A DNA stretch of 64,000 nt, taken from a virus. The notes beneath the pieces are model-generated. The model did no database searches. It had not been told where the DNA came from and worked only from the letters and a program-made list of their open reading frames with translations. Numbering within the stretch: the stretch's first letter is position 1; each line of letters opens with the position of its first letter. This document shows positions 28,897 to 51,679 of this stretch, in pieces. The stretch lies in IMG/VR virus record IMGVR_UViG_3300025707_000004; one strand, written 5' to 3'. A program made the translations under genes and the position numbers.

Positions 28897-28911
28897 TATT
28901 AGTCGCTAATA
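28897..28911. repeat. Palindrome copy 7, TATTAGTCGCTAATA
   Basis: Overlaps the stop codon of the UDG-like gene. Confidence 0.95.
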
Positions 28912-29597
28912 TTTTCACCCCGCTGTTCGCGGAGGTGCCTAGCGATGACGGATGCTTGCTGTATGTGATTGAAGGCGGTGTTCCACAAACCGCCCTCTGA
29001 CATGTCCCAATTTCGATACAGATGACTGAGGCTGTAGGTCACCATGCAGGGTACTACCATGGGGGACAGACCACCAGAAACTTGTGGCTCTACAATCTCC
29101 CCCAGGTTGGGAACAAACTTGGGAGGGTTCTTCGGGAAAACAGCCTCAACAGCCATCTTCCCAAGACACACAATGATCTCCGGGCAGAGCAGCCGAATCT
29201 CCTCGTGTAGGCGCGGCCGACAAGCCGACACTTGCGCCCGGTTGGGGACAGGCATCAACTCAAGAGGCCGCCAGTCGTCGGGGTCAGGAACGGTTGTAGG
29301 GCACAGGGTTGCGGGCGTGAACCAGTAGTCCGCAGGGATGTGGCCGAAGCTCGACAGCAGGGTGCGTAAGACCCCCTCGTAGTTTCCAGTGGGGAACTCA
29401 CGAGTCTGTAGAACGGCGGGGTCAAAGCGGTCTGTGACGAACAGAAGCTCTGGCTTGCGCGGCCCATGCTCCGCCTTGGTGTAGGCGGGCATAGAGCGGA
29501 ACTTCGAGAGCCCGCACTTGTCGCAACTAGCCCAGCACCTCTGTACCGCCCACAGCTTGTCAGAGAGCGGGGGGTCAACCGCTGTAATCAAGGCCAT
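28899..29597 (-). CDS. Uracil-DNA glycosylase family 4-like protein, catalytic motifs degenerate
   Basis: CDKCGL..R, CRPRLHEEIRLLCPEIIVCLGKMA; lacks the GEAPG and HP motifs. Confidence 0.7.
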   Translation of the reverse strand: MALITAVDPPLSDKLWAVQRCWASCDKCGLSKFRSMPAYTKAEHGPRKPELLFVTDRFDPAVLQTREFPTGNYEGVLRTLLSSFGHIPADYWFTPATLCPTTVPDPDDWRPLELMPVPNRAQVSACRPRLHEEIRLLCPEIIVCLGKMAVEAVFPKNPPKFVPNLGEIVEPQVSGGLSPMVVPCMVTYSLSHLYRNWDMSEGGLWNTAFNHIQQASVIARHLREQRGENISD

Positions 29598-34130: not shown

Positions 34131-36026
34131 ATGTCCGTCATTACAGCCCCTTCGGCCGGTAGGCAGGCCCGCGCCTCGTCAGTGGGGCGGCCTGAGGCGT
34201 TCTACCCGTCACCGTTCTTCGACATCGCTGAGAACTACCTCCCGTCGACTATCCGGGAGACGTTCGAGTGGTGTGCCTACTACCAGCGTACCAACCCCAT
34301 CATCTCGACGGTGACGAGTCGCCTCGCGGCGTACCCCATCACGGACATCATGTTCGACGAGGGGAACGAGGGGCTGGTCGAAGAGTGGCGGGACCTGTTC
34401 GAGACCAAGCTGCGCATCCGCCAGTTCCTGGTCGAGCAGAACCTGGACAGGTACACGTTCGGCAACTCGTTCTGTACGGTCTCATTCCCGTTCGTGAAGA
34501 AGCTGACGTGTCGTCAGTGCCAGCACGCGGTCGAGGCGTCCAAAGCTAAGTACCAGTGGCGCGACACGAAGTTCATGCTGCACTGCCAGGAGTGCGATAC
34601 CCAGCACGAGGCGAAGGTACACGACGAGTACCAGAAGAACCTCGAAGCGGTGCGGCTGGTCCGGTGGAACCCGCGGGTAATCGAGATCGAGTACAACGAG
34701 ATAACTGGGCGTTCCCGGTACTTCTACCGGATGCCCCAGTATCTGCGGAACCAGATTACTCTTGGCATTCCTGACGTGGTGCAGAACGTCCCCCAGACGT
34801 TCATCGACGCGATACGTAAAAAGAAGGCCATCCTCATCGAGTCGGACAAAATCTTCCACTCGCGGAGGGCGTCCATCAGCACGAACCCGGGGGACCAGGG
34901 CTGGGGCGCCCCGCTTGTCCTGCCGGTCCTGAAGGACATCTTCTTCACGCAGGTCCTGCGGAAGAGCCAGGAAGCGGTGTGCATGGAGCACATCGTCCCC
35001 ATGCGTGTGCTCTACCCGCAGGTCACCGGAGACGGCAACAACTTCTACTCCCAGGTCAACCTGAAGAGCTGGCAGAAGGAGGTCGAGCTTCAGGTCACCA
35101 AGTGGCGCCAGGACCCCAACCACATCCCGGTCCTCGGGTTCCCGCTCGGCTACCAGCTCATCGGTGGGCAGGGCCGGGCCATGCTGCTCCACCAGGAGCT
35201 GCGGGTCTACTTCGACCAAATCGTAGCGGGCATGGGTGTGCCCACCTCGTTCTTCTACGGGGAGGCCCAGTACAGCGGCGCGAGCGTGAACCTCAAGGCG
35301 CTTGAGAACGAGTTCCTTGGCAACCGTCAAGACATGCTGCGGTTGGTTCACTTCATCCGGGATGCCATTGCCGGTGGGTGTGACAAAACGCCTATTGGGA
35401 TGAGGTTCCGCCCGTTCAAGATGGCGGACGACATCCAGCGCGCGTCGTACGACCTGCAGCTGTCGCAGGGTGGGCTCATCTCGCAGCGGTCGTTGCTACA
35501 GTCTCGGGACTTCGACTACGACCGGGAGCAGACGCTGCTCAAGACCGAGCGGTCGGTCCAGGCGCGTGTATCGCGCCAGCAGATTGTCGACCAAGCGGCG
35601 GCGCAAGGCGAGGCGCAGATTATCCAGGCCAAGTACGGCGCACAGGCGCAGGTGCAGCAGCAGGAGATTCTGAACCAGAACGGCATGGCGACGCCGGAGC
35701 AGCAACAGCAGCAAGGGCAGGAGCAGCAGGGTGCTGCGGGGCAGCAGGCTCAACAGGGCCAGCCGCAGCAGCCTGGGCAAGAGCAGCAGGCTCAGCCGGG
35801 GCAAGAGCAGCAGCCGGTGGAGAGCGCGGGAGGCCAGAACCTCGCCGTAGCGGCGCGGACCGTCGCCCAGCAGTTGAGCGCTATGTCAGAGGTCGACCAG
35901 TATCACCGGCTGGAGCAGCTGCGGGCCAACAACCCGAATCTGTACGAGCTGGTTTTCAGGGACCTAAAAAGTCAGGGCGTACGGCTACGCCCCAACCCTG
36001 AGCAGTTACCCTCGCGCGGACCCTAG
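34131..36026 (+). CDS. Portal-like protein with Zn ribbon and Gln-rich tail
   Basis: Portal-like pattern (D.YTFGNSF, WGAPLVLPVLK, I.AGMGVP..F); CRQC/CQEC; poly-Q C-terminus. Confidence 0.55.
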   Translation: MSVITAPSAGRQARASSVGRPEAFYPSPFFDIAENYLPSTIRETFEWCAYYQRTNPIISTVTSRLAAYPITDIMFDEGNEGLVEEWRDLFETKLRIRQFLVEQNLDRYTFGNSFCTVSFPFVKKLTCRQCQHAVEASKAKYQWRDTKFMLHCQECDTQHEAKVHDEYQKNLEAVRLVRWNPRVIEIEYNEITGRSRYFYRMPQYLRNQITLGIPDVVQNVPQTFIDAIRKKKAILIESDKIFHSRRASISTNPGDQGWGAPLVLPVLKDIFFTQVLRKSQEAVCMEHIVPMRVLYPQVTGDGNNFYSQVNLKSWQKEVELQVTKWRQDPNHIPVLGFPLGYQLIGGQGRAMLLHQELRVYFDQIVAGMGVPTSFFYGEAQYSGASVNLKALENEFLGNRQDMLRLVHFIRDAIAGGCDKTPIGMRFRPFKMADDIQRASYDLQLSQGGLISQRSLLQSRDFDYDREQTLLKTERSVQARVSRQQIVDQAAAQGEAQIIQAKYGAQAQVQQQEILNQNGMATPEQQQQQGQEQQGAAGQQAQQGQPQQPGQEQQAQPGQEQQPVESAGGQNLAVAARTVAQQLSAMSEVDQYHRLEQLRANNPNLYELVFRDLKSQGVRLRPNPEQLPSRGP

Positions 36027-36280
36027 TCACGCGCGGAGGCAAGCACCACTGCGCAGAGCACGGGGCTGAACCCCCCGCACTCCTCACAGTTCCCGCTTGA
36101 GAAGTACACCTCAGCGGTGTCCTCCTCGACGACCAGACACGTACCGCACAGCCACTCGGCCGTCCAGGCGCGTCGCTTCTCGAAGAAGCGGCAGTCAGCA
36201 CACTCCCGGGGGGTGTAGCAAGGCATCGGGGCAAGCGGACAGCTTACCCCCGGCCTCAGCGGGATGAATTTTGGGTTCAC
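36023..36280 (-). CDS. Small Cys-rich Zn-finger protein, antisense island
   Basis: CADC, CGTC and CEEC pairs; downstream of candidate promoter P6. Confidence 0.55.
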   Translation of the reverse strand: MNPKFIPLRPGVSCPLAPMPCYTPRECADCRFFEKRRAWTAEWLCGTCLVVEEDTAEVYFSSGNCEECGGFSPVLCAVVLASARD

Positions 36281-36459: not shown

Positions 36460-36517
36460 CAGGCCGTGCGCTGCTAGTATGGGCGAAGGTACGCCCCAAA
36501 ACAGAGGCTTTTCCCCG

Positions 36518-39500
36518 ATGGCGGATATCCATACCCTGGACCCAGAGAGGGCGATGCAAGCCCTCAAAGACGGCACAATCCAGGTTCTCAAAGACACCCT
36601 CCCGATTGAGGGGCGGACGCGCATCTTGCGCGCTACAAACGTCTATGCTGGGCCCAACGTCCACATCGACGACATACACGCTCAAAAGCGGGCCAGGGTC
36701 CGCAATCGGACATGGGCGGTCCCCATCCTCGCGGACATGGAGCTGGTGGACAAAGCCTCCGGCAAAGTGGTGTCGAAAACCAAGGGCGTGCGGCTGCTGA
36801 ATCTGCCGCACTACACCCGCCGGTACTCGTTCATCGTGGACGGGACGGAGTACCAAGCAGACAACCAGTGGCGCCTCAAGGCCGGCGCGTACACACGTAT
36901 GAAGGCTAACGGCGGACTGGAGACCCAGTTCAACCTGAGCAAGGGCCGCGGGTTCCGTGTGAGCTTCGACCCCAAGAAGCGCCAGTTCCTGGCCACCCAC
37001 GGGACGACCAACACGCCCCTCGTGCCCCTTCTTCAGACACTGGGTATCAGCGCCGAGGAGATGGAGACGGCCTGGGGGCCGGAGGTCTACCAGACCGCCG
37101 CACGCCTTCAGCGCAAAGGGCAGATGGCGAAGCTCGCCAAGACCCTGAACCCCCGGTCCGAAGCGACCACTCCCGAGGAGGTCGAGGATGTTGTACGTGA
37201 GTCGTTCGCGGCGACCGAGCTTCGCCCGGACACCACCAGCGTCACCTTGGGCAAGGGCTTCACGACCGTCACCGGCGAGGCGCTGCTATTAGCGGCTAAT
37301 AAGCTGCTCGGCGTTTCTCGTGGGACGGCCGAGGTGGACAACCGTGACTCCCTCCGGTTCAAGGAGCTGTGGACGGTGGCCGACCACCTCCCGGAGCGCA
37401 TCAAGAACTCGCGTCGTCGGGTGGAGCGGAAGATCCGCAACAACCTGGACCGCCGTGACGACATCCGCAAGATTGTGACCCCTGACGTTTTCAACGTCCC
37501 GGTCAAGTCGTTCTTCACCTCGACCTCCCTGTCTCAGCGCCCCTCACAGCTGAACCCGGTCGACATGATTGGCGGGCACCTCAAAGCCACCCTGATGGGC
37601 ACCGGCGGTATCAGCACGGAGAACGCGGTCAGTCATTCTGCCAAGATGCTGGACTCTAGCCAGATGGGCTTCACTGACCCGTTTCACAGCCCGGAGGGGA
37701 CCCGAAGTGGTATCACCACGCACCTGACGCTGGGTGTCTCCAAGCGAGGCAACGAGCCGGTCATCAAGGTGTGGGACGTGAAGAACAGCAAGTGGGCGGA
37801 TGTCTCCCCCACGGAGCTGCACGGGAAGACGCTGGCCTTTCCCGACCAGTACGACACGGGAGACGGAAAGACCTTCAAGCCTCGGAAAGACCTCATCACG
37901 GTCATCCGCGGGGGTGAGGGTGACCCCACCAATGTGAAAGCCAACGAGGTGGACTATGTTCTGCGATCTCCCAAGGCGATGTTCTCATTCACTGCGAACC
38001 TCATACCGTTCTTGCCCTCTGACCAAGCGAACCGTGCGGGAATGGCTGCGCGTCACATGGAGCAGACGGTTCCGCTGAAGAACCCCGAGGAGCCCCTTCT
38101 TCAGGTGGCTTCTGGCTCGGACCAGCCGGCATGGGACACCTGGGAGAAGATTCTCGGCCAAATGCAGTCACACGCCAGCCCGGTGTCCGGGACGGTGAAG
38201 TCGGTCGAAGCCGAGCGCATTGTGGTGGCAGGGGACGACGGCAAGAAGCACGTTGTCCAGCTCTACGATAACTACCCCCTCAACGACTCCAAGGCGTTCG
38301 TTACCAGCAAGCCCCTGGTGCAGAAGGGCGACGAGGTCAAGAAGGACGACGTCATCGCTGACACTAGCTTCACCAAGGGCGGCGTCCTCTCGATGGGCAC
38401 CAATCTGCGCGTGGGCTATCTGGCGTACAAGGGGCTCAACTACGAGGACGGCATCACCATTAGTGAGACGGCCGCCAAGAAGCTCACCAGTGAGCACCTG
38501 CACAAGCCGCGTGTGTACCTGGACACCGGGATGATGATGGGGCTGAAGAAGTTCCGTGCGAACTTCCCCGGGGTTGTCTCTGACGCGAACGCCGCCAAGC
38601 TCGACGAGGATGGGGTCATCAAGCGTGGCGAAATCGTCCGCCCTGGTGACGTGATTGCCACAGTGCTCAAGGAGGCGGACCCTTCGGCAGAGCAAATCAT
38701 GCTCAAGGGCATCCACAAGAGCTTGGCCAAGCCCTACAGGGACCGCTCGCTCACGTGGAACAAGCCGTACACGGGTGTGGTCACGGAGGTCGTGCGTAAC
38801 GGCAAAGAGGTCGTCGCTTACGTCAAGACGGCAGAAGAGGCCGACATCGGCGACAAGCTGACCTCACGCCATGGGAACAAAGGCGTCGTGGTTGCCATCC
38901 TCCCGGACGAGGAGATGCCCCGGGATGGCGATGGTGCCCCGCTGGAGATTGTGCTGAACCCCTCGGGTGTTCCTGGGCGCATCAATCCTGGGCAGGTCCT
39001 GGAGAACGCCATCACGCTCGCAGCGGTCGAGGACGGGAAGCCCTACGCGGTCTCGAACTTCGATGGCGACGAGGGGCACCGCATCAGCGTGGGCGACGTG
39101 TCCACCAAGATCGTCCAGGTCAAGGGGCACTACCGGACAATCAAGTCCGGGAAGGGCTCGAAGCGCATCTGGATTGAACCCTACGAGTACGAGACCGGTT
39201 ACAAGGGGCTCATTGACCAAATCCTGGAGAAGAAGGGCCTGTCGGAGACGACGGAGCTGTTCGACCCGGAGACGGGGAAGAGCCTGGGCCCAGTCATGAC
39301 GGGGCACCAGTACATCCTCAAGCAGGAACACCAAGTCGACAAGAAGCTGTCTGCCCGCGCGCACGGCTACGGGCATGCTTACAACGCCAACATGGTGCCG
39401 CGAGGTACCTACGGTGGTAACGACGGCGCTCAGCGGTACGGCGAGCTGGGCCTCTACGCGATGATTGCCCACGGCGCGGTCAACAACATCCGCGACGCTC

Positions 39501-42500
39501 TGTCGTGGAAGTGCTTCCCGTATCACGAGAAGGTGCTGACCGACCAAGGCGAAATCGAGATTGGAAAGATTGTCACCAATCGCCTCCCGGTCAAGGTGCT
39601 GACGTGGTCGGACGAAGAAGGGCTGTGCTACCGGCCCATCAAGAATTACTGGAGGCGTAACGGGGAGCAGGACCGGCTTGTGCGTGTTACGGCGCACCGC
39701 AGGCGGAGCGGCGAGTTTGCCTTCGTGAAAGGGACGGTTCTCTGTACCGAGGAGCACCAGTTCTACGTTCGGCGCGAGGGGCAGCTGGAGAAGGTGTGGG
39801 CGAAAGACCTCCGCCCTGGGGTGGATGCCATACTCACCTGGGGAAACGAGCTTTCGGAGGGCCAGCATGACCTTCTGCTGGGCTCACTCCTGGGGGATGG
39901 TTACATGGCGCAGAAGGAGACTTCGCGGTTTCCTTACTTCCAGGAACGCCATTCGGTGAAGCAGCGGGAGTATCTCCAGTTCAAGGCGGATGCACTGAGT
40001 TCGTTCACGCACCGAGAGCTGCGGGAATACACCGCGGGGTACCAAGGCTTCAGCTGTGGGCAGCAGATGGTGGAGTGGTCCAGCTTCGCTACGCCTGAGT
40101 TCCTGAAATTGCATCGTCAGTTTTATGCCTCTGGGGAGAGGCGCTTCCCACAGGAGGTGTGGGACCTGCTGACGTTGAGGTCATTGGCAATTTGGTTCCA
40201 GGACGATGGCTGTGGGTATCGTTCGCTGAGTAATGGCGGCGGTGTGCAGGCGGGTCTTGCGGTCTACTCGATGAACTCGGATGAGCGGAAGTCTGCCATC
40301 GCGGCTATCGAGCGGCTGACGGAGGTGCACTTCAACGACAACGTCGACCACCTCAAGAAGCACGGAGTGGCCGCAGAGCACTTCTTGAGCAAGCTGGGTC
40401 CGTACCTTCACCCTAGTTTGTCTTACAAGACCTGCGATGTGGTGGCCCCTATTGGGCAGAAGCTGGTTGAGTTTTCTGCTCCTGGTGCCCCGGGATTGGT
40501 GGAGACCCCGGTTGACGCAGTTGAGCCTGCTGGGTGCTTGGGAGACCTGCCGGAATGGCGGGGGAAGTACTTGTTCAATTTGGAGGTGGAGGATACGCAC
40601 AGGTACTTCGTTCGCGGCTTCCTGGTTGGGAACTCAGACCGGTCCCAGGACGAAATCTGGACGGCCATTCAGACAGGGCAGATGCTTCCCGCGCCCCGCC
40701 CGTCGTTTGCGTACGAGAAGTTTCTCGGGTACCTCAACGGGCTCGGAGTCAACGTCGAGAAGCACGGCAACGAGCTTGTCGTGCTCCCCATGACCGACAA
40801 GCAGATTACTGAGATGTCGTCCGGTGCGTTGGAGGACGGCGGCAAGGTGGTCCGTGGTAAGGACCTGCGCCCGGAGAAGGGCGGCCTCTTCGATGAGGAA
40901 ATCACAGGCGGCGTTGGCGGGAAGAACTGGAGCCACTTGGTCCTGGCTGAGTCCATGCCCAACCCCCTCTTTGAGAAGGGTATTCGGTCGCTGCTCGGGC
41001 TCACTGGTAAGCAGTACGACGGCATCCTCGCGGGGAAGGTCTCGCTGGACAAGGATGGCAAGGTCACAGAGGAGGGCGGGGCTACCGGGCCCGCTGCCCT
41101 TGCAGCGGCACTGTCCGGCATCGAAGTCGACAAGGAGCTGACCGCGGCCAAGGAAGAAATCAAGACCGCTCGCCGCAGCAGCCTCGACAAGGTCAACAAG
41201 AGAATCAAGTACCTCCTGATGCTCAACAAGACGGGGCTGTCAGCTAGAGAGGCGTACGTCCTGGAGAACCTTCCGGTCGTTCCGCCGCAGTTCCGCCCCA
41301 TTTCTGTGATGGAGGCGGGTGACCTCAACGTGGACGGACTCAACCTGCTCTACCGGGATGTCTCGTTGCTGAGTGACCAGCTGAAGGCAGCCAAAGGGGT
41401 TCTGCCGGACGCGGAGCTGTTCAAGCTCCGCACTGAACTGTACAGCGCCGTCGAAGCACTCATGGGTACCGCCACGGCCTCTGACCAGGGTTTGACGACT
41501 GATGGGCAGCCCAGGCCCCCTGGCATCCTCAACATCCTCTCAGGGCGCACCTCGCCCAAGGAGAGCTACTTCCACAAGGCCATCCTCGACCGCAAGCAGG
41601 ACCTGACCATGCGGTCGGTCATCGTCCCGGATATGAGCCTGCACCTGGACGAGATGGGCCTCCCGAAGAAGGGGGCGATGAAAATCTTCCGGCCCTTCGT
41701 CGTCAAGGAGATGGTGGCCATGGGCTACACACCTCTCCAGGCGCGGGAAGAAATCGAGAAGGACACGTCGCTGGCGAACAAGGCGCTCGCGGTCGTGGCC
41801 TCCAAGCGCCCGGTCCTCTTCAAGCGAGACCCGGTGCTGCACAAGTTCGGCATCATGGCGTTCAAGGCGCGCATCATCGACGACGAGAAGGCCATCCATA
41901 TCCACCCGTTGGTGGTGGGGGGCTTCAACGCTGACTTCGACGGGGACGCGATGGGGGTGTTCGTGCCTATCTCGCAGGGCGCGGTCGACGAGGCGTACAA
42001 GATGATGCCCAGCAAGAACCTCTTCAACCCCTCGACCGGGAAGGTCATGTACCAACCCTCGCTGGAGGGGCAGCTGGGGCTGTTCATGCTCACGCAGTTC
42101 GGGAAGCGCTCCCGGGAGAAGTTCGCGAGCAACAAGGACGCCATCGACGCGGCCAACAAGGGCGACATCGCCATGACCGATGTGGTCACAGTGGACGGGA
42201 AGAAGACCACCGCCGGGCGATTGAAGATTGCGGGTGCCCTTCCTGCGAGTCTGCGAACCGCGGAACTGCTGGAGGATGCGGACTTCACCCTGAATAATAA
42301 GAGCCTCCAAGGTGTGCTGCGGGACCTAGCCACCGACCATCCTGCGCAGTTCGCTAACTCTGTAGACAAGCTGAAGGACCTCGGCTTCGGGTTCGCCTAC
42401 AGCAGCGGGTTCAGTTTTGATTCTGACGACTTCAATACCCTGAGCACGATTCGGGATAAGCACCTGAAGGTCGCGCAGGCACGCGAGAAGGTGGTCCGCG

Positions 42501-43954
42501 GGGCGGGCGGCACACGGAAAGAGCAGGACGGCAAGGTTGTCGCGCTGTACCAAAAGGCGACGGCTGACATCAAAAACGACGCGGAGAAGTACCTGCAGGC
42601 TACTGGGAACCGGCTGTACACCATGTACAAGGCGGGCGTGAAGCCGGGCTGGTCCCAGCTCCAGCAGCTCATCATCGCGCCCCTCCTGATGGAGAACGCG
42701 GACGGACGTATCATCCCTGTTCCTGTGACTAAGTCCTACGCAGAAGGGCTCTCCACCGCGGGCTACTGGACGGCGTCGTCCGGTGCGCGGAAGGGGCTTA
42801 TCGAGAAGGTGCAGTCCGTGAGTGAGCCGGGAGCGCTCTCCAAGCAGATTGTGAACACGGCCATCCCACAGGTCATCACCGTCGAGGACTGCGGAACGAC
42901 CACGGGCATCCACATGAAGATTGGGGACAGCGACCTTGTAGACCGCGTTCTCGTCAAGGGAGTCAAGGCGAAGGGGCAGTCGTTCCGGGCAGGAAGTCTC
43001 ATCACGCCGCAGATGGTTACAAGTCTCAAGGCCGCGCGTGTGGACGGTCTGGTTGTCCGGTCGCCGACGAAGTGTGAGTCCCACCAGGGGATGTGCGCGA
43101 AGTGCTACGGCGCTATGGACGGGGGTGGCCCCGTTGCGCTCGGGACAAACATCGGGGTCATCGCTGGTCAGGCTATCGGTGAGGTCGGTACGCAGCTGAG
43201 TATGCGGGTGTTCCACACAGGCGGCGCTTCCGGTGCGGGCGGTAGCTCTGTGGTGGGTGGCATCGAACGCGTGAAGCAGCTCTTGAAGATTCCTCAGACC
43301 CTGCCGGGGAAGGCCACGTTGGCTCAGGTCCCCGGGCGCGTGGGCAAGATAGCGAAGAGCGCGGTGGGCGGTTACGACATCACTGTCGGCGGCGAGGAGC
43401 ACTACATACCGCACGGTCGGACACTCCAGTTCAAGGTGGGCGCTACGGTCAAGAAGGGTGATGCCCTCAGCTCGGGGCCGGTTGACCCCCGAGAGCTATT
43501 GACGCTGACCAACCTGGACCGGGTGCAGCGTTACCTGACCGACGAGGTCCACGGGGTGTATGCGGAGGCGGGGGTCAAGAAGCGAAACGTCGAGGTCGTC
43601 GTCCGCGCGCTTACGAACTTGGGTGTTGTAGAAGACCCCGGTGAAGTGGGCGACGAGGAGGGCATCATCCGTAATGACTACGTGAGTTTGACGAAGGTGA
43701 ACGCCCTCAACCGAGCCAACAAGGGGAAGGAGACCGTCAAGGTCGTCCCCGTTCTCCGCGGCGTCGAGACCCTGGCCCTGGACCAGACCACGGACTGGAT
43801 TGCTCGACTGCAGTACCGGAAGCTCAAGGAGACCTTCACCCGCGCGGCGAACGAGGGTTGGAAGTCGGACATCCATGGGGTCCACCCGGCTCCCGGCATT
43901 GCGTACACAGCTGAGTTCGGTAAGCCCGACTCAGGCTCCAAGAGCCCGTACTAA
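36518..43954 (+). CDS. rpoBC: Single-chain fused beta-beta' DNA-directed RNA polymerase, intein-containing
   Basis: Beta motifs SPEG, DQANRA.M, GDKLTSRHGNKGVV, GAQRYGE; beta' motifs LPVVPPQFRP, KRDPVLH, NADFDGD (41927-41947), GARKGL, GEVGTQLSMRVFHTGG. Confidence 0.95.
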   Translation: MADIHTLDPERAMQALKDGTIQVLKDTLPIEGRTRILRATNVYAGPNVHIDDIHAQKRARVRNRTWAVPILADMELVDKASGKVVSKTKGVRLLNLPHYTRRYSFIVDGTEYQADNQWRLKAGAYTRMKANGGLETQFNLSKGRGFRVSFDPKKRQFLATHGTTNTPLVPLLQTLGISAEEMETAWGPEVYQTAARLQRKGQMAKLAKTLNPRSEATTPEEVEDVVRESFAATELRPDTTSVTLGKGFTTVTGEALLLAANKLLGVSRGTAEVDNRDSLRFKELWTVADHLPERIKNSRRRVERKIRNNLDRRDDIRKIVTPDVFNVPVKSFFTSTSLSQRPSQLNPVDMIGGHLKATLMGTGGISTENAVSHSAKMLDSSQMGFTDPFHSPEGTRSGITTHLTLGVSKRGNEPVIKVWDVKNSKWADVSPTELHGKTLAFPDQYDTGDGKTFKPRKDLITVIRGGEGDPTNVKANEVDYVLRSPKAMFSFTANLIPFLPSDQANRAGMAARHMEQTVPLKNPEEPLLQVASGSDQPAWDTWEKILGQMQSHASPVSGTVKSVEAERIVVAGDDGKKHVVQLYDNYPLNDSKAFVTSKPLVQKGDEVKKDDVIADTSFTKGGVLSMGTNLRVGYLAYKGLNYEDGITISETAAKKLTSEHLHKPRVYLDTGMMMGLKKFRANFPGVVSDANAAKLDEDGVIKRGEIVRPGDVIATVLKEADPSAEQIMLKGIHKSLAKPYRDRSLTWNKPYTGVVTEVVRNGKEVVAYVKTAEEADIGDKLTSRHGNKGVVVAILPDEEMPRDGDGAPLEIVLNPSGVPGRINPGQVLENAITLAAVEDGKPYAVSNFDGDEGHRISVGDVSTKIVQVKGHYRTIKSGKGSKRIWIEPYEYETGYKGLIDQILEKKGLSETTELFDPETGKSLGPVMTGHQYILKQEHQVDKKLSARAHGYGHAYNANMVPRGTYGGNDGAQRYGELGLYAMIAHGAVNNIRDALSWKCFPYHEKVLTDQGEIEIGKIVTNRLPVKVLTWSDEEGLCYRPIKNYWRRNGEQDRLVRVTAHRRRSGEFAFVKGTVLCTEEHQFYVRREGQLEKVWAKDLRPGVDAILTWGNELSEGQHDLLLGSLLGDGYMAQKETSRFPYFQERHSVKQREYLQFKADALSSFTHRELREYTAGYQGFSCGQQMVEWSSFATPEFLKLHRQFYASGERRFPQEVWDLLTLRSLAIWFQDDGCGYRSLSNGGGVQAGLAVYSMNSDERKSAIAAIERLTEVHFNDNVDHLKKHGVAAEHFLSKLGPYLHPSLSYKTCDVVAPIGQKLVEFSAPGAPGLVETPVDAVEPAGCLGDLPEWRGKYLFNLEVEDTHRYFVRGFLVGNSDRSQDEIWTAIQTGQMLPAPRPSFAYEKFLGYLNGLGVNVEKHGNELVVLPMTDKQITEMSSGALEDGGKVVRGKDLRPEKGGLFDEEITGGVGGKNWSHLVLAESMPNPLFEKGIRSLLGLTGKQYDGILAGKVSLDKDGKVTEEGGATGPAALAAALSGIEVDKELTAAKEEIKTARRSSLDKVNKRIKYLLMLNKTGLSAREAYVLENLPVVPPQFRPISVMEAGDLNVDGLNLLYRDVSLLSDQLKAAKGVLPDAELFKLRTELYSAVEALMGTATASDQGLTTDGQPRPPGILNILSGRTSPKESYFHKAILDRKQDLTMRSVIVPDMSLHLDEMGLPKKGAMKIFRPFVVKEMVAMGYTPLQAREEIEKDTSLANKALAVVASKRPVLFKRDPVLHKFGIMAFKARIIDDEKAIHIHPLVVGGFNADFDGDAMGVFVPISQGAVDEAYKMMPSKNLFNPSTGKVMYQPSLEGQLGLFMLTQFGKRSREKFASNKDAIDAANKGDIAMTDVVTVDGKKTTAGRLKIAGALPASLRTAELLEDADFTLNNKSLQGVLRDLATDHPAQFANSVDKLKDLGFGFAYSSGFSFDSDDFNTLSTIRDKHLKVAQAREKVVRGAGGTRKEQDGKVVALYQKATADIKNDAEKYLQATGNRLYTMYKAGVKPGWSQLQQLIIAPLLMENADGRIIPVPVTKSYAEGLSTAGYWTASSGARKGLIEKVQSVSEPGALSKQIVNTAIPQVITVEDCGTTTGIHMKIGDSDLVDRVLVKGVKAKGQSFRAGSLITPQMVTSLKAARVDGLVVRSPTKCESHQGMCAKCYGAMDGGGPVALGTNIGVIAGQAIGEVGTQLSMRVFHTGGASGAGGSSVVGGIERVKQLLKIPQTLPGKATLAQVPGRVGKIAKSAVGGYDITVGGEEHYIPHGRTLQFKVGATVKKGDALSSGPVDPRELLTLTNLDRVQRYLTDEVHGVYAEAGVKKRNVEVVVRALTNLGVVEDPGEVGDEEGIIRNDYVSLTKVNALNRANKGKETVKVVPVLRGVETLALDQTTDWIARLQYRKLKETFTRAANEGWKSDIHGVHPAPGIAYTAEFGKPDSGSKSPY
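37287..37301. repeat. Palindrome copy 9, TATTAGCGGCTAATA
   Basis: Inside the RNAP gene; encodes LLAAN. Confidence 0.95.
39512..40633 (+). mobile_element. Intein (374 aa) with LAGLIDADG endonuclease, in the RNAP beta C-terminal region
   Basis: Begins CFPYHEKV; CTEEHQF; LLGSLLGDG and LAIWFQDDG; ends FLVGN|S; removal restores LSWKSD (cf. bacterial LTVKSD). Confidence 0.9.
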
Positions 43955-45252
43955 TGAGTGGGCTCTCTAAATCCCCTGAGCAGGCGTCGCGCCCAGGGCG
44001 GCTGGAGCTGTGCGAAGTTACCGATGTGAACACCACCGAGTTCACGGTGAGCCTCATGGGGGTGTTCACGCACAAGCCTCATGCGGAGATGCCCTTTGCC
44101 TCGCTGTACTGCCACCCCGACCACGGCGGTGGTGTGTACGTGATGCCCGAGGTGGGTGCCTACGCCTACGTGTTCACGTCAGCAGACGGCACGTCCATGC
44201 TGATGGGGTTCGTTACCAACCCACAGTCCGTCGAGGGGGAGGTCTTCGATAAGAACGGCACCCCTACGCTCATCGAGTCCTCGAAGGGGCCGGACTTCTC
44301 GGGCTTCCGCTTGGACATGGAGCCCGGCGACATCGCGATGGCGACCAAGGATGGCAACCGTGTTGTCCTTCGTCGCGGGGGCATCGTCCAGATTGCGGCA
44401 ACGGGTATCGCCCAGCGGCTGTACATCCCCGTTGGCAATGTCATCCGGGACTACTTCGAGCGCTATCAGGCCCGGTCGCCGCAGGGGCGCATCGAGTGGG
44501 GGCACGCGACTATCCTGGAGGAAGACGACGACACCGTTGCTGTGCTGATTGAGTACGACTTCAAAGAGTCCATCGAGGACACCGCAGCGGCGGTGGAGGT
44601 TCGTTTCGGGCAGCTGACGTTCGATGTGCTGGACCCGGAGAAGGCTGGCAAGCACCACACATTTGCCAGGAACAAGCAGGACGACTACGAACTATTAGCG
44701 ACTAATATTGGGGTGCTCAGCTGCACCGTGATGTCGCGCGACGAGGTGCCCGCGGTTACGTACGCCGTACAGGTCTCCCGAGAGGGTGACTGCTTCATGA
44801 TGTCGAAGGGCCATATCCAGGTAGAAACCGAGTCGCTGTACCTCAAGCTAGGGCAAAAGGGTAAAGTTGTCTTCGGAGCTAGCTTCATCGAGGCTATAGC
44901 GGAGTCCAACAGGCTGAAGGCGGTGGTCAGGGAACTGCTCTTGGAAAGCACCGAACTGATACACATGAGGGCAGCTGAAGCCACAATGAATCTAGGGGCT
45001 GTACGAATGCAGTTCGAGGGCGGAGCCCTGACCATTACCCCGCCGGGGGGTGGTCGTGTGGATTTCGGTGGCCCTGGCGGACACGACGTCGTGATTAACA
45101 GCCACGACCTGCTTCGTGCGATTCGTGACCACGAGCACTACATTGAGGGGGCGGTCCCCTCAACGAACGCCGGAATCGTGAGGGCTAAGAAGTCCCCTAC
45201 GCTCGGCGGGATTACCAGAGCAACCTCGACACTTCTAAAGACGACTAGGTAG
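43954..45252 (+). CDS. Baseplate spike/GpV-like protein
   Basis: N-terminal OB-like V.DV...GGVYVMPEVG followed by beta-strand repeats and a C-terminal HEH. Confidence 0.45.
   Translation: MSGLSKSPEQASRPGRLELCEVTDVNTTEFTVSLMGVFTHKPHAEMPFASLYCHPDHGGGVYVMPEVGAYAYVFTSADGTSMLMGFVTNPQSVEGEVFDKNGTPTLIESSKGPDFSGFRLDMEPGDIAMATKDGNRVVLRRGGIVQIAATGIAQRLYIPVGNVIRDYFERYQARSPQGRIEWGHATILEEDDDTVAVLIEYDFKESIEDTAAAVEVRFGQLTFDVLDPEKAGKHHTFARNKQDDYELLATNIGVLSCTVMSRDEVPAVTYAVQVSREGDCFMMSKGHIQVETESLYLKLGQKGKVVFGASFIEAIAESNRLKAVVRELLLESTELIHMRAAEATMNLGAVRMQFEGGALTITPPGGGRVDFGGPGGHDVVINSHDLLRAIRDHEHYIEGAVPSTNAGIVRAKKSPTLGGITRATSTLLKTTR
44693..44707. repeat. Palindrome copy 10, TATTAGCGACTAATA
   Basis: Encodes LLATN. 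Confidence 0.95.
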
Positions 45253-48475: not shown

Positions 48476-51400
48476 ATGCCCACCAGCAACGACAGCTACA
48501 GCAAGCAGTTGCTGGCGGTGGCCCCCATGTTCGCGGTCAAGACGCTGGCGGACATCCCCAAGGCCGCAGTTGAGTCTGCAGTCGAGGGCAAGCTCAGAGA
48601 CCGCTCGAAGAAGTTCAGCAAGCTACTCACGCACGGCTTCAAGGGCCGCGGCATAGGCCGGGCTCTTGGTGGGACGGCGGCCATTGCGTCCGCCCCGCTC
48701 TTCGTACGGGGGGTGCACCGGGCGTCGTCGAAGGAGAAGCATCGGAGGAACAAGGGGCTCCGAGACATTCTGGCGGCGAGCACGTTCACCGGAATCGCGA
48801 CAGGGGGTGTGGAAGGTTTTCGAGAGGCAAGACTGCACGGCCTTTCTCGTAAGGCTGCGGCGAAGGAGGGGCTAGGCTTCGGTGCGTCGAGGGCACTGGT
48901 CAAGTCTCCGAAAGCAATAGCCCTTGCCCTGGGCGTCGCCGCTGGAAGAAAGAAGAAGCGGAGCAGGGACAAGTACCTCGTGCCCGCCACAGTTGGTGCC
49001 GCCCTCGGTGGGGCATCTCGCTACGCGGAGCAAGTGCTACGGCACGCCCCCAAGGGGGTCAACCGGAAGCTGTTCAAGGCAGCGCTGCCCCGTGGCGCGG
49101 GCGGCGTTGTCGGAGGGGCCTTGGGCGGCCTGGGCTTGGCTGCTGTGACTGACCGCGCGCTCAAGGCGCTCGATAAGGGCAAGCAGAAGCGCGCCGCGGC
49201 TGGCGTCCTCAGCAAAGTCGCCTCCGCTGCGGCCGAAAAGCTTGGCCCAAAGCGTACCGCGGTGTTTATCCAGGGGAACCCTCGCTGGCGCACTGGGCAT
49301 GAGGCGCGCACGGCGACGTTCTACAAGAAGGTCGTCGGGCTGTTGGAGGGGGAAGGCTTCGAGGTGACAACGGACCCGGGGCTACCGTACACCTCCCCCA
49401 AAAAGGCCGACGTGTGGGTGGGGTACAGCCGGGGGGTTGACCGGCTTCGGTTCGCGCCGAAGGGCACTACGACCATTGCCTTGGGCAGCAATGTTGCAGG
49501 CGCTGTACGGCACCCCAAGGACAACACAGCCAACATGGTGGGCACTGCGAAGGGCGTGGCGCCCAACAAGTACCACTACGTGCTGACCCCTAGGATGGTG
49601 GGGCAGCTCAAGCGAAAGCTGACAGGGGTTGCAGGCCGGTCCGGTGGATGGGTTCAGGGGTACCGCAGAAAAGACGGCACTCGTGTGAAGGCACATCGAC
49701 GAAGGGTGGCCGTAAAGGGTATGGCGAAGGTAGCCGCGGCTGCGGCCGAGAACCTGGGCACACAGCACGGCACCGGCATCCCTGCGATGAAGTCGTGGTT
49801 CAAGCCGTACCCCCATCAAGCCTCGGCCGTACGGAAGATGTACGACAACCACGGCAAGATGATTTTGGCGCATGGGACCGGGACAGGAAAAACTGCCAGT
49901 GCCATCTACGGGTTCGAGAAGCTCCGCCACGACAAGAAGGCAAAGAAGGCCCTGGTCGTCGTTCCTTCGGGTCTTCGCATGAACTTCGCCGAGAACGGCA
50001 TCCAGAACTTCACGACGTCGTCCGTGCAGATTGTTGGCTCTGCGTCGGAGAAGAAGTACAGCTCGCTCGTCGTCCGTCCGAACGAGGTGGACGCCACCAA
50101 GGACTACACCATAGTCAGTTACGCGACCTTCCGCCGGGACCCTGAGAGGTACATGCAGGCGACGGGGTCGGACACACTCATCCTGGATGAGTTCCACAAG
50201 GCGCGGAATGAGAAGGCACTGACCTTCCAGGCGCTCATGAAGGCTCGGGCGTTCGCGGTCAACGTGATGGGGCTGACTGCGTCGCCCATCAACAACAACC
50301 CGCAAGAGCTGGCGACCCTGCTGACTATCACGGAGGGGAAGCGCCTCGTCAGCCCTGCCCAGTTCAAGGCGGCCTTCACGAAGACCATCGGCCACTCGAA
50401 GGGTTTCCAGGGCGGCACGAAGAAAGTCACCGACCTCGACAACATCCCGGAGATGCTGCGGCTCACCTATCCGCGGATGGACCTGATTACGTCGGAAGAC
50501 CTGAAGGGCAAGACCATGCCCAGGCAGGAACTCCAGACGGTCCAGGTACCCATGAGTGAGGACCAGTATGATCTGTACGAGCTGGCGCTCGACAAGCTCG
50601 GCCCGCTCAAGAAGTACCTGATGACGCGGGACAAGGAGGTCACCGTCCGCGAGGCGCAGCAGCTCTTCGGCAAGCTCATCCAGGCGCGGCAGATTGCCAA
50701 CTCGGTTCACACGGCTAAGTCCAACGTCAGCCCCAAGAAGTCGGCGGAGATTACGCCGAAGGTCAAGAAGCTCATCGAGGATGCGGAGAGCCACCTCCAG
50801 GCGGACTCCACGCACAAGGTTGTTCTGTACTCGAACTTGGTAAAGGGCGGAGTAGACGTGATGTCGGCTGGGCTAAAGGCCCGGGGCATCGACCACGCTC
50901 TGTTCGTTGGCAAGGGCCGGGACGTCGGCAACGTGAAGGTCACGGGTCCTGTGCGGCAACAGGGGGTCAAGGACTACAAGGCGGGGAAGAAGCGGGTCAT
51001 CATTCTGAGTGGTGCTGGTGCCGAGGGCCTCGACCTCAAGAACAGCACGGCGTTCTACTCGCTCGACGCTCACTTCAACCCGGAGGTTACTGCGCAGGCG
51101 GAGGCCCGTGCTCGCCGTCTCGGTGGGCAGGACTTCCGTAAGCCCGAGAACCGGGTAGTGGACGTGCGGCGTTACCAGTCGGTCGTGCCGGACAACAAGA
51201 AGCCTGGGTTCTTCGGCAAGCTGATTGGGCGTCAGGCCCCGCAGACCACTGACGAGTGGGTCAGCAGCGTGGCGGACAACAAGCTGCGGAAGACCAAGAC
51301 GTTCAAGAGGGTCATGCGTGAGCCGCACAAGTACATCAAGAAGTACCGTGCCGCGAACGGCAAGATGCGCTACGTCTACCCGAAGGGGGGCAAGGCCGCC

Positions 51401-51679
51401 CCGGCGAAGAAGCGGGCATGGTACGAGTTCTACAAGTCCGCGCCTGAGTACTCCCCTTCGCCGCGAGCCGAGAAGTTGCCTGCACTGCCCCAAGGGCCGA
51501 GCCAGCGCGCGATGGGCCTAAGCAAGCCGCGAAAGAAGAAGAAGTGGTACCAGTTCTGGAAGAAGCCGGAGTCTGTAGGGGGCGGGACTAAGCGTCCCCC
51601 GAAGCCGTCTGTGATACCGGGTGAGGCCGCCTCGGGGAACTTCCCCTCTGTCCAGCCCATCCCTTCCCCGCCGGCTTGA
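48476..51679 (+). CDS. Modular protein: basic Gly-zipper N-terminus, small alpha/beta domain, SNF2-like helicase
   Basis: HGTGTGKT, LDEFH, LTASPINN, AGAEGLDL and QAEARARR helicase motifs; middle domain FIQGN..GYSRG. Confidence 0.8.
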   Translation: MPTSNDSYSKQLLAVAPMFAVKTLADIPKAAVESAVEGKLRDRSKKFSKLLTHGFKGRGIGRALGGTAAIASAPLFVRGVHRASSKEKHRRNKGLRDILAASTFTGIATGGVEGFREARLHGLSRKAAAKEGLGFGASRALVKSPKAIALALGVAAGRKKKRSRDKYLVPATVGAALGGASRYAEQVLRHAPKGVNRKLFKAALPRGAGGVVGGALGGLGLAAVTDRALKALDKGKQKRAAAGVLSKVASAAAEKLGPKRTAVFIQGNPRWRTGHEARTATFYKKVVGLLEGEGFEVTTDPGLPYTSPKKADVWVGYSRGVDRLRFAPKGTTTIALGSNVAGAVRHPKDNTANMVGTAKGVAPNKYHYVLTPRMVGQLKRKLTGVAGRSGGWVQGYRRKDGTRVKAHRRRVAVKGMAKVAAAAAENLGTQHGTGIPAMKSWFKPYPHQASAVRKMYDNHGKMILAHGTGTGKTASAIYGFEKLRHDKKAKKALVVVPSGLRMNFAENGIQNFTTSSVQIVGSASEKKYSSLVVRPNEVDATKDYTIVSYATFRRDPERYMQATGSDTLILDEFHKARNEKALTFQALMKARAFAVNVMGLTASPINNNPQELATLLTITEGKRLVSPAQFKAAFTKTIGHSKGFQGGTKKVTDLDNIPEMLRLTYPRMDLITSEDLKGKTMPRQELQTVQVPMSEDQYDLYELALDKLGPLKKYLMTRDKEVTVREAQQLFGKLIQARQIANSVHTAKSNVSPKKSAEITPKVKKLIEDAESHLQADSTHKVVLYSNLVKGGVDVMSAGLKARGIDHALFVGKGRDVGNVKVTGPVRQQGVKDYKAGKKRVIILSGAGAEGLDLKNSTAFYSLDAHFNPEVTAQAEARARRLGGQDFRKPENRVVDVRRYQSVVPDNKKPGFFGKLIGRQAPQTTDEWVSSVADNKLRKTKTFKRVMREPHKYIKKYRAANGKMRYVYPKGGKAAPAKKRAWYEFYKSAPEYSPSPRAEKLPALPQGPSQRAMGLSKPRKKKKWYQFWKKPESVGGGTKRPPKPSVIPGEAASGNFPSVQPIPSPPA

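What the first reader, a model, noticed from the sequence alone, without database searches (positions are those of the whole stretch)
36518..43954. Phage-encoded, streamlined, single-chain bacterial-type beta-beta' RNA polymerase inside the virion gene block
Seen: beta runs directly into beta' in one frame (GVNVE-KHGNELVVLPMT, ~40745-40795). The protein is ~2104 aa after intein removal, versus ~2750 aa for E. coli beta plus beta'. Motifs align closely with bacterial RpoB/RpoC, unlike the highly diverged, split phiKZ-type enzymes. The beta' N-terminal Zn-binding domain is deleted (GLFDEEITGGVGGKNWSHL), while the clamp coiled-coil and the second Zn site remain. No alpha, omega or sigma gene is recognisable in this window. 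Its position between portal and baseplate genes suggests late expression or packaging. Inference: either an alpha-independent minimal RNAP, or one that borrows host subunits.
Basis: partly seen in the sequence, partly recalled or inferred. Interest (0 to 1): 0.8.

Follow-up and report, generated by a model that had tools for sequence, protein, structure and literature searches.

The report
Single-chain phage RNA polymerase with intein
An uncultured phage of about 188 kb encodes both large subunits of a bacterial-type RNA polymerase as one protein, interrupted by a self-splicing intein and placed beside its portal gene; a sigma factor encoded elsewhere in the genome probably lets the phage bring its own transcription enzyme into the host, a design shared by many phages that I found described in no paper.

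Summary
One ORF (36518-43954, 2478 aa) carries beta, a 374-aa homing-endonuclease intein (39512-40633), then beta' in the same frame with no linker. A natural intein-less allele is exactly 2104 aa. The beta' N-terminal zinc ribbon is missing, and the catalytic motifs, clamp helices and second Zn site are kept. The ORF is identical in independent assemblies, and at least 82 relatives have the same junction.

The gene follows the portal gene and overlaps a probable baseplate-hub gene. No alpha or omega is found in five complete relatives. The enzyme is not factor-less, though. The record is only 79% complete, and the 188-kb scaffold carrying the identical polymerase also encodes a 292-aa sigma70-family protein. 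That sigma is homologous to gp10 of Salmonella phage Arash, which was detected in virions together with Arash's polymerase.

Best reading: a sigma-dependent, alpha/omega-independent, probably virion-packaged polymerase. Activity, packaging and alpha-independence are inferred, not shown.

It forms a clade with Arash and Vibrio phage D69, far from the sampled bacteria and unlike the split phiKZ-type enzymes. This scan has already reported the same family on other genomes. The features specific to this window are the intein and the sigma gene lying off-record.

The parts
36518..43954 (+). Fused beta-intein-beta' RNA polymerase gene (2478 aa precursor, stop included). The mature chain is 2104 aa, 228.5 kDa, pI 9.1.
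36518..39511 (+). Beta part, N-extein (lobes, fork, Rif-pocket region, catalytic lysine motif at 38849-38884, flap).
   Evidence: Pfam Rpb2_3 and Rpb2_6; blastp segments to E. coli beta 83-220, 396-940 and 1048 onward; motif alignment
39512..40633 (+). Class-1 intein of 374 aa with a two-motif homing endonuclease. It starts with Cys, has a block-B TxxH at 39746-39757 and endonuclease motifs at 39875-39907 and 40184-40216, and ends in Asn followed by Ser. It is inserted in the conserved beta motif that corresponds to about residue 1242 of E. coli beta.
   Evidence: Pfam PF03161, 1.4e-20; exact excision seen in the natural intein-less allele P0004
40634..40774 (+). Beta C-terminal extein, ending where E. 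coli beta ends. The fusion point with beta' has no linker; the boundary is good to about 2 residues.
   Evidence: 85-row alignment
40775..43951 (+). Beta' part, about 1060 aa: clamp helices at 41333-41461, NADFDGD at 41927-41947, bridge helix at 42782-42862, second Zn site at 42884-42907 and 43070-43111, trigger-loop arm at 43190-43225.
   Evidence: Pfam Rpb1_1, Rpb1_2 and Rpb1_5; PDB hits; motif alignment and coordinates
40883..40939 (+). Short Gly-rich, Cys-free loop in place of the beta' N-terminal zinc ribbon (E. coli beta' 68-99).
   Evidence: 0 Cys in all 84 phage rows
34131..36026 (+). Portal protein gene, immediately upstream.
   Evidence: blastp 1.5e-81 to Arash gp204 (portal) and 2.6e-77 to Vibrio D69_0259
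43954..45252 (+). 432-aa gene whose ATG overlaps the polymerase stop (TAATG). Probable baseplate hub or spike (gpV-like), tentative.
   Evidence: overlap; Atlas features score 0.95 to Phage_base_V clusters; 1 of 11 homologues hits PF04717 at 0.0011; AF2 model too poor to use
48476..51679 (+). SNF2-family helicase of 1067 aa, a conserved companion of the polymerase. It is the homologue of Arash gp217, which was detected in virions.
   Evidence: Pfam SNF2-rel_dom 9.2e-26; PHROG 62; blastp 3e-35 to Arash gp217; Arash proteome

Best explanation
The gene encodes the whole catalytic core of a bacterial-type RNA polymerase as one chain.

Proposed mechanism:
1. After translation the intein splices itself out of the beta part. 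This leaves a 2104-aa, roughly 229-kDa beta-beta' fusion in which the covalent link, rather than an alpha dimer, holds the two halves together.
2. The core binds a phage-encoded sigma70-family factor (292 aa). Its gene lies about 60 kb upstream of the polymerase gene (counted around the genome ends), on the same strand, inside a structural-gene block. Binding is through the retained beta' clamp helices.
3. The holoenzyme starts transcription at phage promoters independently of the host polymerase.
4. The gene sits between portal and baseplate-hub genes. In Salmonella phage Arash the homologous polymerase, sigma and SNF2 helicase are among the proteins found in virions. The enzyme is therefore probably made late, packed into the particle and delivered with the DNA to switch on early genes.

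Status of each step:
- Shown here: gene structure, intein boundaries, conservation of catalytic and sigma-binding elements, presence of sigma on the same genome, and absence of detectable alpha or omega.
- Inferred: catalytic activity, sigma dependence, packaging, alpha-independence and rifampicin insensitivity.
For: Architecture and motifs.

Exact intein excision in a natural allele.

A selected, conserved design:
- 82 intein-free relatives have the same junction.
- 37 of the 121 sequences examined (the window's own ORF plus the 120 best cluster hits) carry 1-4 large inserts at 6 or more recurring sites. This is typical of inteins targeting an essential enzyme.

Sigma:
- It lies on the same ENA scaffold as the identical polymerase.
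- Pfam Sigma70_r3 scores 32.7 bits against a cut-off of 25.3.
- A profile search of PDB hits RpoS and SigA at 6e-9 across regions 2-4.
- It is conserved in all relatives searched, with 260 homologues.
- hhalign to Arash gp10 gives 99.6% probability, E 6e-25.
- The gene neighbourhood resembles that of Arash gp10.

Virion precedent:
- In Arash, gp206 (beta plus the N-half of beta') had the most spectra, and gp216, sigma gp10 and helicase gp217 were also detected (PMC10585845).
- In YerA41 the polymerase subunits and a sigma were particle-associated (PMC7354516).

Synteny: portal, polymerase, then further downstream the SNF2 helicase.

Alpha and omega: none found in G000 (alpha-domain model PF01000 only) or in five complete relatives (all three models). 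The same searches were positive in 14 of 14 control genomes. There is one polymerase locus per genome.

Complex model of the beta' N-part with sigma:
- Score 0.71 against a best control of 0.01.
- That mark was reached by 58 of 80 solved complexes and by 2 of 110 mismatched pairs.
- The runs share at least 36% of contacts, and the partner's pLDDT is at least 67.
- The interface is the clamp helices against sigma region 2.
- Such complexes are solved for bacteria, so the pass may reflect likeness rather than this pair's own binding.

Rif-pocket residues differ from E. coli: H526 is Gly in 70 of 82 relatives and S531 is Thr in 82 of 82.
Against: - There is no experimental datum for this phage or any single-chain member. 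Packaging is extrapolated from Arash, whose polymerase is only 27-31% identical and is split within beta'.
- The Arash authors themselves note that abundant infection proteins can contaminate virion preparations.
- Failure of Pfam models to find alpha or omega does not exclude a diverged substitute or use of host alpha.
- To my knowledge (not checked here), an artificial E. coli beta-beta' fusion still needed alpha.
- The sigma gene lies outside the record examined, so its link to this window rests on a 100%-identical 27.4-kb overlap with the longer scaffold.
- No promoter has been tied to the enzyme.
Confidence: 0.6

Rival explanations
1. The enzyme is not packaged. The fused polymerase is an intracellular middle/late enzyme, made during infection and directed by the phage sigma. 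Early genes would then be read by the host polymerase, and the gene's place next to the portal gene would reflect only late co-expression.
For: - The gene lies in a late-looking structural operon, so it cannot be made before host-driven or packaged-enzyme transcription.
- Virion detection in Arash could be carry-over of abundant proteins, as its authors say.
- There is a single polymerase locus per genome. phiKZ, by contrast, keeps separate virion and non-virion sets (PMC7598289).
Against: - In Arash the polymerase chain gave the highest spectral count of all proteins, above the major capsid protein. Sigma gp10 and helicase gp217 showed 100% coverage.
- YerA41 shows particle association of its polymerase subunits and a sigma independently.
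- The sigma gene itself sits among structural genes both here and in Arash.
- A late-only enzyme would still need something to read late promoters before it exists.
Confidence: 0.25
2. The enzyme is a hybrid. The fused chain assembles on the host's alpha dimer (and perhaps omega) and may also accept host sigma factors, so the phage supplies only the catalytic subunits.
For: - No phage alpha or omega was found.
- The chain keeps the full conserved bacterial core with no phage-specific insert of 15 aa or more that could replace alpha.
- Cellular enzymes need alpha for assembly (PMC7598289).
Against: - Identity to any bacterial beta or beta' is only 27-32%. The clade sits on a long stem outside the sampled bacteria, so host alpha interfaces need not be conserved.
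- The family spans phages of evidently very different hosts (GC content and habitats differ), which fits a self-sufficient enzyme better.
- phiKZ and AR9 enzymes work without alpha (PMC7598289).
- A packaged enzyme would have to carry host alpha in the capsid.
Confidence: 0.25
3. Artefact or passenger: a chimeric contig, host rpoBC contamination, or a decaying captured host gene.
For: Some 'phage' records do contain bacterial rpoBC. For example, the 'Acinetobacter phage MD-2021a' hit lies in an rplL-rpoB-rpoC operon.
Against: - The region is identical in independent assemblies.
- The flanking genes are phage genes.
- GC3 is a uniform 0.81.
- The junction is conserved in 82 or more relatives, and all catalytic motifs are intact.
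- No bacterial homologue exceeds 32% identity.
Confidence: 0.02

Closest known systems
RNA polymerase of Salmonella phage Arash (gp206 + gp216, sigma gp10, SNF2 helicase gp217) and of Vibrio phages D69/D148/D181
   Same: - Beta is fused without a linker to beta'.
- The same Cys-free loop replaces the beta' zinc ribbon.
- The gene follows the portal gene.
- There is a homologous sigma (hhalign 99.6%) in a structural block, and a homologous SNF2 helicase.
- The two form sister clades in the beta' tree (100* support).

   Different: - Arash and D69 are split again inside beta', at the position of P0004 residue 1519/1520, with other genes in between. Here the whole enzyme is one chain.
- Identity is only 27-31%.
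- Arash has NADFDGD changed at two positions.
- Arash is known only from annotation and virion proteomics. No paper I found discusses the fusion.
phiKZ / AR9-type jumbo-phage multisubunit RNA polymerases
   Same: Both are phage-encoded two-barrel enzymes related to cellular beta and beta', without alpha and omega. In the phiKZ group one set is packaged in the virion (PMC7598289).
   Different: - Those enzymes are split into 4-5 polypeptides, are highly diverged, come as two sets per genome and have no sigma homologue (AR9 uses gp226).
- Here there is one chain and one locus per genome. Pfam and PDB similarity to bacterial subunits is strong, and there is a sigma70-family partner.
Natural rpoB-rpoC fusions of Helicobacter and Wolbachia, and the engineered E. 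coli fusion (from my own knowledge, not checked here)
   Same: The C-terminus of beta is joined in frame to the N-terminus of beta'.
   Different: Those are cellular enzymes of about 2900 aa with alpha, omega and, to my knowledge, the zinc ribbon. Here the setting is a phage, the chain is 2104 aa, there is no zinc ribbon and no alpha or omega gene was found.
Single-chain two-barrel phage polymerases (crAss-like gp66, YonO, P23-45 tape-measure-fused enzyme)
   Same: One polypeptide carries both catalytic barrels. Some are virion-delivered (PMC7481178; bioRxiv 2022.12.01.518664, listed).
   Different: Those share only the barrel motifs with cellular enzymes and have no sigma. This protein aligns with bacterial beta and beta' along its whole length.
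mReC, the multimeric RNAP-encoding Caudovirales of Weinheimer and Aylward 2020 (PMC7481178)
   Same: Metagenomic tailed phages encoding recognisable beta and beta', branching outside cellular clades.
   Different: That paper does not mention fused subunits or sigma in its clade. In the first of 40 parts of its contig table that I read, and in a search of the stored (truncated) supplements, none of the six sample identifiers of my relatives that I searched for appeared among the mReC contigs; two occur only in its 'no RNAP detected' reference set. Membership is therefore undecided.

Membership tests
Bacterial-type RNAP beta (RpoB) | Rpb2 domain 6 with the catalytic lysine motif; colinear lobes, fork and flap | tested here: met
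   Pfam Rpb2_6 at 1.5e-52 and Rpb2_3; colinear blastp to E. coli beta; motif conserved. SI1 and SI2 are absent.
Bacterial-type RNAP beta' (RpoC) | NADFDGD, bridge helix, trigger loop, clamp helices, second Zn site | tested here: met
Bacterial-type RNAP beta' (RpoC) | N-terminal four-Cys zinc ribbon | tested here: not met
   E. coli beta' 68-99 has no counterpart, and there are 0 Cys in 84 of 84 phage rows
Bacterial RNAP core (alpha2-beta-beta'-omega) | Separate beta and beta' chains assembled on an alpha dimer, with omega | tested here: not met
   One fused ORF. PF01000, PF01193 and PF01192 are absent from five complete relatives while the controls were positive in 14 of 14 genomes. Use of host alpha was not testable.
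phiKZ/AR9-type phage multisubunit RNAP | Beta and beta' each split into two or more polypeptides; two sets per genome; no sigma homologue | tested here: not met
   Single chain, one locus per genome, sigma present
Arash/D69-type phage RNAP | Linker-less beta-beta' junction, zinc ribbon replaced by a Gly-rich loop, gene next to the portal, gp10-like sigma, SNF2 helicase | tested here: met
   It differs in not being split within beta'.
Virion-packaged RNAP | Protein present in purified particles | not testable with these tools
   Only by analogy to the Arash and YerA41 proteomes
Class-1 intein with homing endonuclease | N-terminal Cys, block-B TxxH, two endonuclease motifs, C-terminal Asn followed by Ser/Thr/Cys; precise excision restores the host protein | tested here: met
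   Sequence features at the listed coordinates; Pfam PF03161; the natural intein-less allele is colinear. The penultimate residue is Gly rather than the usual His. Splicing itself was not tested.
Sigma70 family (for the partner, L042:18825-19703) | Regions 2, 3 and 4 | tested here: met
   - Region 3 is above the Pfam cut-off.
- A profile search hits RpoS and SigA across regions 2.x to 4.2 at 6e-9.
- Regions 2 and 4 alone stay below the Pfam cut-offs in this copy.
Sigma70 family (for the partner) | Binds the beta' clamp helices of its core | tested here: inconclusive
   The complex model passes (0.71 against 0.01), but like complexes are solved, so the pass shows likeness, not binding.

The most novel reading that the evidence does not exclude
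A natural, self-sufficient bacterial-type transcription machine made of only two polypeptides. One is a 229-kDa beta-beta' chain that folds and works with no alpha, omega or zinc ribbon. The other is a 292-aa sigma. Both would be packed in the capsid and injected, so that the phage transcribes its genome from the first minute without the host polymerase and insensitive to rifampicin. This would be the simplest known sigma-dependent RNA polymerase, and a widespread one (hundreds of phage lineages).
Probability: 0.4. Interest if true: 0.8.

Novelty: new variant of a known kind. Interest (0 to 1): 0.62.

Why it matters
Cellular multisubunit polymerases are thought to need alpha (or its Rpb3/11 equivalents) as an assembly platform. 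The known alpha-less phage enzymes (phiKZ, AR9) are so diverged and fragmented that they say little about the bacterial enzyme.

This family keeps the bacterial core and a recognisable sigma, but links beta to beta' covalently and drops alpha, omega and the zinc ribbon. If it is active as such, three things follow:
- It is a compact, genetically simple model for sigma-dependent initiation and for polymerase assembly.
- It is a possible orthogonal two-gene transcription system for synthetic biology.
- It is another route by which phages escape host transcription control.

Repeated intein invasion of the gene, at six or more sites across the family, marks it as essential to these phages.

It also matters for annotation. 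These genes are labelled 'hypothetical' or 'beta subunit' in GenBank records such as D69 and Arash.

Tried and rejected
- **Sigma in the window and the 143-kb record.** Pfam Sigma70_r2 and r4, tblastn and phmmer with relatives' sigmas and a family HMM on all six frames found nothing credible. A weak r4 hit in a 456-aa ORF turned out to be ParB-HTH-like. The gene was reached only by walking on the longer scaffold.
- **Arash gp196 and D69_0246 sigmas as queries.** No match.
- **Structure of the 432-aa downstream protein.** The AF2 model had pLDDT 45, so I did not run a fold search on it.
- **Read-level check of the junction and of intein-plus versus intein-minus alleles.** Independent assemblies served instead.
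- **Membership in mReC.** In the supplementary tables, none of the six sample identifiers of my relatives that I searched for appeared among the mReC contigs. I read only the first part of the contig table and the stored file is truncated, so this is not decisive.
- **The 15-bp palindrome as a family-wide promoter.** It is abundant here but absent from relatives at 60% identity, so it cannot be the conserved promoter of the family in that exact form.
- **Carin-5 beta' in the tree.** Its branch length was about 10, making its placement meaningless.
- **Chimeric contig, frameshift or host contamination.** Rejected.
Full report
**What is there.** The window is the reverse strand of positions 76325-140324 of a single 142,974-bp IMG/VR virus record, which CheckV rates 79% complete. 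The flagged ORF runs 36479-43954. Gene callers and all relatives start at the Met encoded at 36518, giving 2478 aa.

Pfam places the domains in this order: Rpb2 domains 3 and 6 (beta), a homing-endonuclease domain (PF03161), then Rpb1 domains 1, 2 and 5 (beta'). The best solved relatives are bacterial beta' chains, at 1e-109 for Thermus and 6e-91 for E. coli.

**Intein.** A 2104-aa protein from another metagenome (P0004) is 94-96% identical. It is colinear except that residues 1012-1385 of the window's reading are missing.
- The insert (nt 39512-40633, 374 aa) begins with Cys.
- It has a block-B TxxH and two endonuclease motifs.
- It ends in Asn followed by Ser.
- It sits in the conserved beta motif that corresponds to about residue 1242 of E. 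coli beta.

Among the 121 sequences examined (this ORF plus the 120 best cluster hits), 37 carry one to four large inserts at six or more recurring positions. Thirteen or so share this site. In this window the PolA and terminase genes also carry inteins.

**Fusion and losses.** I aligned 82 intein-free relatives with Arash, Vibrio D69 and E. coli beta plus beta'.
- The last residue of E. coli beta aligns to P0004 residue 1044 and the first beta' residue to 1045. There is no linker.
- E. coli beta' 68-99, the four-Cys zinc ribbon, is replaced by a short Gly-rich loop with no Cys in all 84 phage rows.
- The mature chain has only four Cys, those of the retained second Zn site.
- The other E. coli segments without a counterpart are beta 2-35, SI1 (221-354), SI2 (939-1047), beta' 127-151, SI3 (about 944-1100) and the C-terminal tail.
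- There is no phage-specific insert of 15 aa or more.
- The catalytic lysine motif, NADFDGD, bridge helix, trigger-loop arm, lid and clamp helices are conserved.

'Streamlined' therefore means the conserved bacterial core without lineage-specific inserts and without the zinc ribbon. Identity to E. coli is 27% in beta and 29.5% in beta'.

**Is it real?** The 27.4 kb around the gene is 100% identical in two independent ENA assemblies, a 188,287-bp scaffold and a 140,465-bp contig. The protein is indexed in 44 blocks of the assembly collection that the look-up of encoding contigs reads. GC3 is 0.81, as in the neighbouring genes. A read-level check could not be run.

**Surroundings.**
- Upstream on the opposite strand lies a replication module: PolA, primase, DnaB-like helicase, other helicases, UDG, a recombinase and a Cas4-like nuclease.
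- The + strand block begins near 32.4 kb. The gene at 34131-36026 is a portal, with blastp 1.5e-81 to Arash gp204.
- The polymerase stop overlaps the ATG of a 432-aa gene (TAATG). ESM Atlas protein-language-model features place this gene with baseplate hub or spike (Phage_base_V) clusters at score 0.95. Only one of its 11 homologues reaches a weak Pfam hit, and my AF2 model was unusable. I treat the assignment as tentative.
- Further downstream come an SNF2 helicase homologous to Arash gp217, the terminase, and a prohead-protease-like gene.

**Sigma.** No sigma is detectable in the window or in the 143-kb record. Complete relatives do encode a conserved protein of about 290 aa with sigma features, and it has 260 homologues in the protein collection.

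One of these homologues (292 aa) lies on the very scaffold that carries the identical polymerase: ERZ23491365 scaffold_20. The sigma gene is near 15 kb and the polymerase at 137-145 kb, on the same strand. That stretch has no overlap with G000, and none of the genes flanking sigma in a sister assembly of the same region has a homologue in G000. This fits its lying in the missing 21% of the record.

Evidence that it is a sigma and the partner of this enzyme:
- It passes Pfam Sigma70_r3 at 32.7 bits against a cut-off of 25.3.
- Its family profile hits RpoS and SigA from region 2 to region 4.2 at 6e-9.
- It is homologous to Arash gp10 (hhalign 99.6%, E 6e-25).
- It shares gp10's neighbourhood: a large protein, a small protein, sigma, then structural genes.

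A complex model of the beta' N-terminal 419 residues with the sigma scored 0.71 against 0.01 for the best control. That mark was reached by 58 of 80 solved complexes and by 2 of 110 mismatched pairs. The runs share at least 36% of contacts, and the partner's pLDDT is at least 67. The interface is the clamp helices against sigma region 2. Bacterial holoenzymes are solved, so this shows likeness, not proof of binding.

**Alpha, omega and a second polymerase.** PF01000, PF01193 and PF01192 find nothing in five relatives that are 99-100% complete, while all 14 control genomes score. Each relative has a single beta' locus. Diverged substitutes or use of host alpha cannot be excluded.

**Relatives and phylogeny.** All 120 listed best hits are fused proteins except one 1469-aa form (P0078), at 38-100% identity and mostly 2000-2125 aa. 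They sit on contigs of up to 199 kb from marine and other metagenomes.

In GenBank phages the nearest relatives are Vibrio phages D69, D148 and D181 and Salmonella phage Arash. In these, beta plus the N-half of beta' is one gene (about 1525 aa) placed after the portal gene, and the C-half of beta' is a separate gene.

The best bacterial beta' matches are only 27-32% identical. A beta' tree (IQ-TREE, quick search, 44 rows) shows the following:
- The single-chain family is monophyletic (SH-aLRT 97).
- It is sister to Arash plus D69 (100).
- Rhizobium phage TM30 comes next (98).
- The whole group sits on a long stem outside the sampled bacteria.

Long-branch warnings apply. However, the shared junction, the shared zinc-ribbon loss, the synteny and the sigma support the grouping independently.

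**Literature.**
- Arash virion proteomics found the beta-containing chain to be the most abundant by spectra. It also detected the beta' C-half, sigma gp10 and helicase gp217 (PMC10585845).
- YerA41 shows particle-associated polymerase subunits and a sigma (PMC7354516).
- Reviews describe phiKZ and AR9 enzymes as split, lacking alpha and omega, and without sigma homologues (PMC7598289; PMC7824862).
- The mReC paper mentions fusion only for crAss-like phages (PMC7481178). The part of its contig table that I read, and a search of its stored supplements, did not show the six sample identifiers of my relatives that I searched for among the mReC contigs.
- I found no paper describing this single-chain, sigma-paired family.

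Earlier follow-ups of this scan reached the same reading on other genomes. I re-derived each point here.

**Mechanism and verdict.** The most likely reading (0.6) has four parts. The precursor splices. The 229-kDa chain is the whole core, with the covalent link substituting for alpha-mediated assembly. The phage sigma binds the clamp helices and directs initiation. The enzyme, the sigma and probably the SNF2 helicase are packed into the virion for early transcription.

Rif-pocket residues differ from E. coli (H526 is Gly in 70 of 82 relatives, S531 is Thr in 82 of 82). From the established E. coli resistance positions I infer rifampicin insensitivity, which offers a simple test.

The rival readings are a non-packaged late enzyme (0.25), a hybrid with host alpha (0.25, compatible with packaging) and an artefact (0.02).

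Noticed in passing
window, 11 copies (2090, 10661, 12168, 15519, 23334, 28897, 33989, 37287, 44693, 47508, 54093); 28 copies in G000: The AT-rich 15-bp palindrome TATTAG-NNN-CTAATA occurs 11 times in the window against 0 expected. In the whole record, 17 of 28 copies fall outside my rough gene calls, and about ten of these lie 1-40 nt upstream of a start codon. By eye, the YCG centre mostly reads in the gene's direction. A few copies are followed by a second short motif. The palindrome also flanks the sigma gene on the longer scaffold, but it is nearly absent from relatives at 60% identity. It is a candidate phage promoter or operator; other readers proposed a parS-like site.
   Followed up: partly
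window 21142-23940 (-) and 54080-57088 (+): Two more intein-bearing essential genes. DNA polymerase A carries a Hint + HNH insert (residues about 390-677). The large terminase is 1002 aa, with a PF14528 endonuclease domain at residues 387-458 between its ATPase and nuclease parts.
   Followed up: partly
family of P0002-P0121: The polymerase gene is an intein hot spot across the family. There are 1-4 large inserts per gene at six or more recurring sites (P0004 positions about 392, 782, 999, 1440, 1822 and 1868), and precursors reach 3966 aa.
   Followed up: partly
L042:18825-18950 (sigma N-terminus) and alignment A3 columns 20-70: The phage sigma has a conserved N-terminal extension of about 40 aa that has no counterpart in the RpoS and SigA matches. 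It could be a packaging signal or a region-1.1-like element.
   Followed up: no
L026:1426-2016 (relative G002): One relative (45% identical polymerase, 182.7 kb) additionally encodes a 196-aa ECF-like sigma that passes the Pfam region 2 and region 4 cut-offs. Arash also has a second sigma, gp196. Sigma switching on the phage's own core is possible.
   Followed up: no
window 28899-29597 (-): A UDG-superfamily gene lies beside the replication helicases. The more distant polymerase-encoding phages YerA41 and Carin-5 have hypermodified thymidine and UDG-linked PolA (PMC12686479 and PMC13697223, listed). Whether this phage modifies its DNA was not examined.
   Followed up: no
window 36023-36280 (-): A small 85-aa ORF sits on the opposite strand between the portal and polymerase genes. 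It is called in the independent assemblies and has no Pfam match. The 240-nt AT-richer gap before the polymerase start may hold a promoter.
   Followed up: no
phage collection hits H4/H5 (CAKLQH020000005.1): The record named 'Acinetobacter phage MD-2021a' matches because it contains a bacterial rplA-rplJ-rplL-rpoB-rpoC operon. It is therefore bacterial sequence filed as phage.
   Followed up: yes
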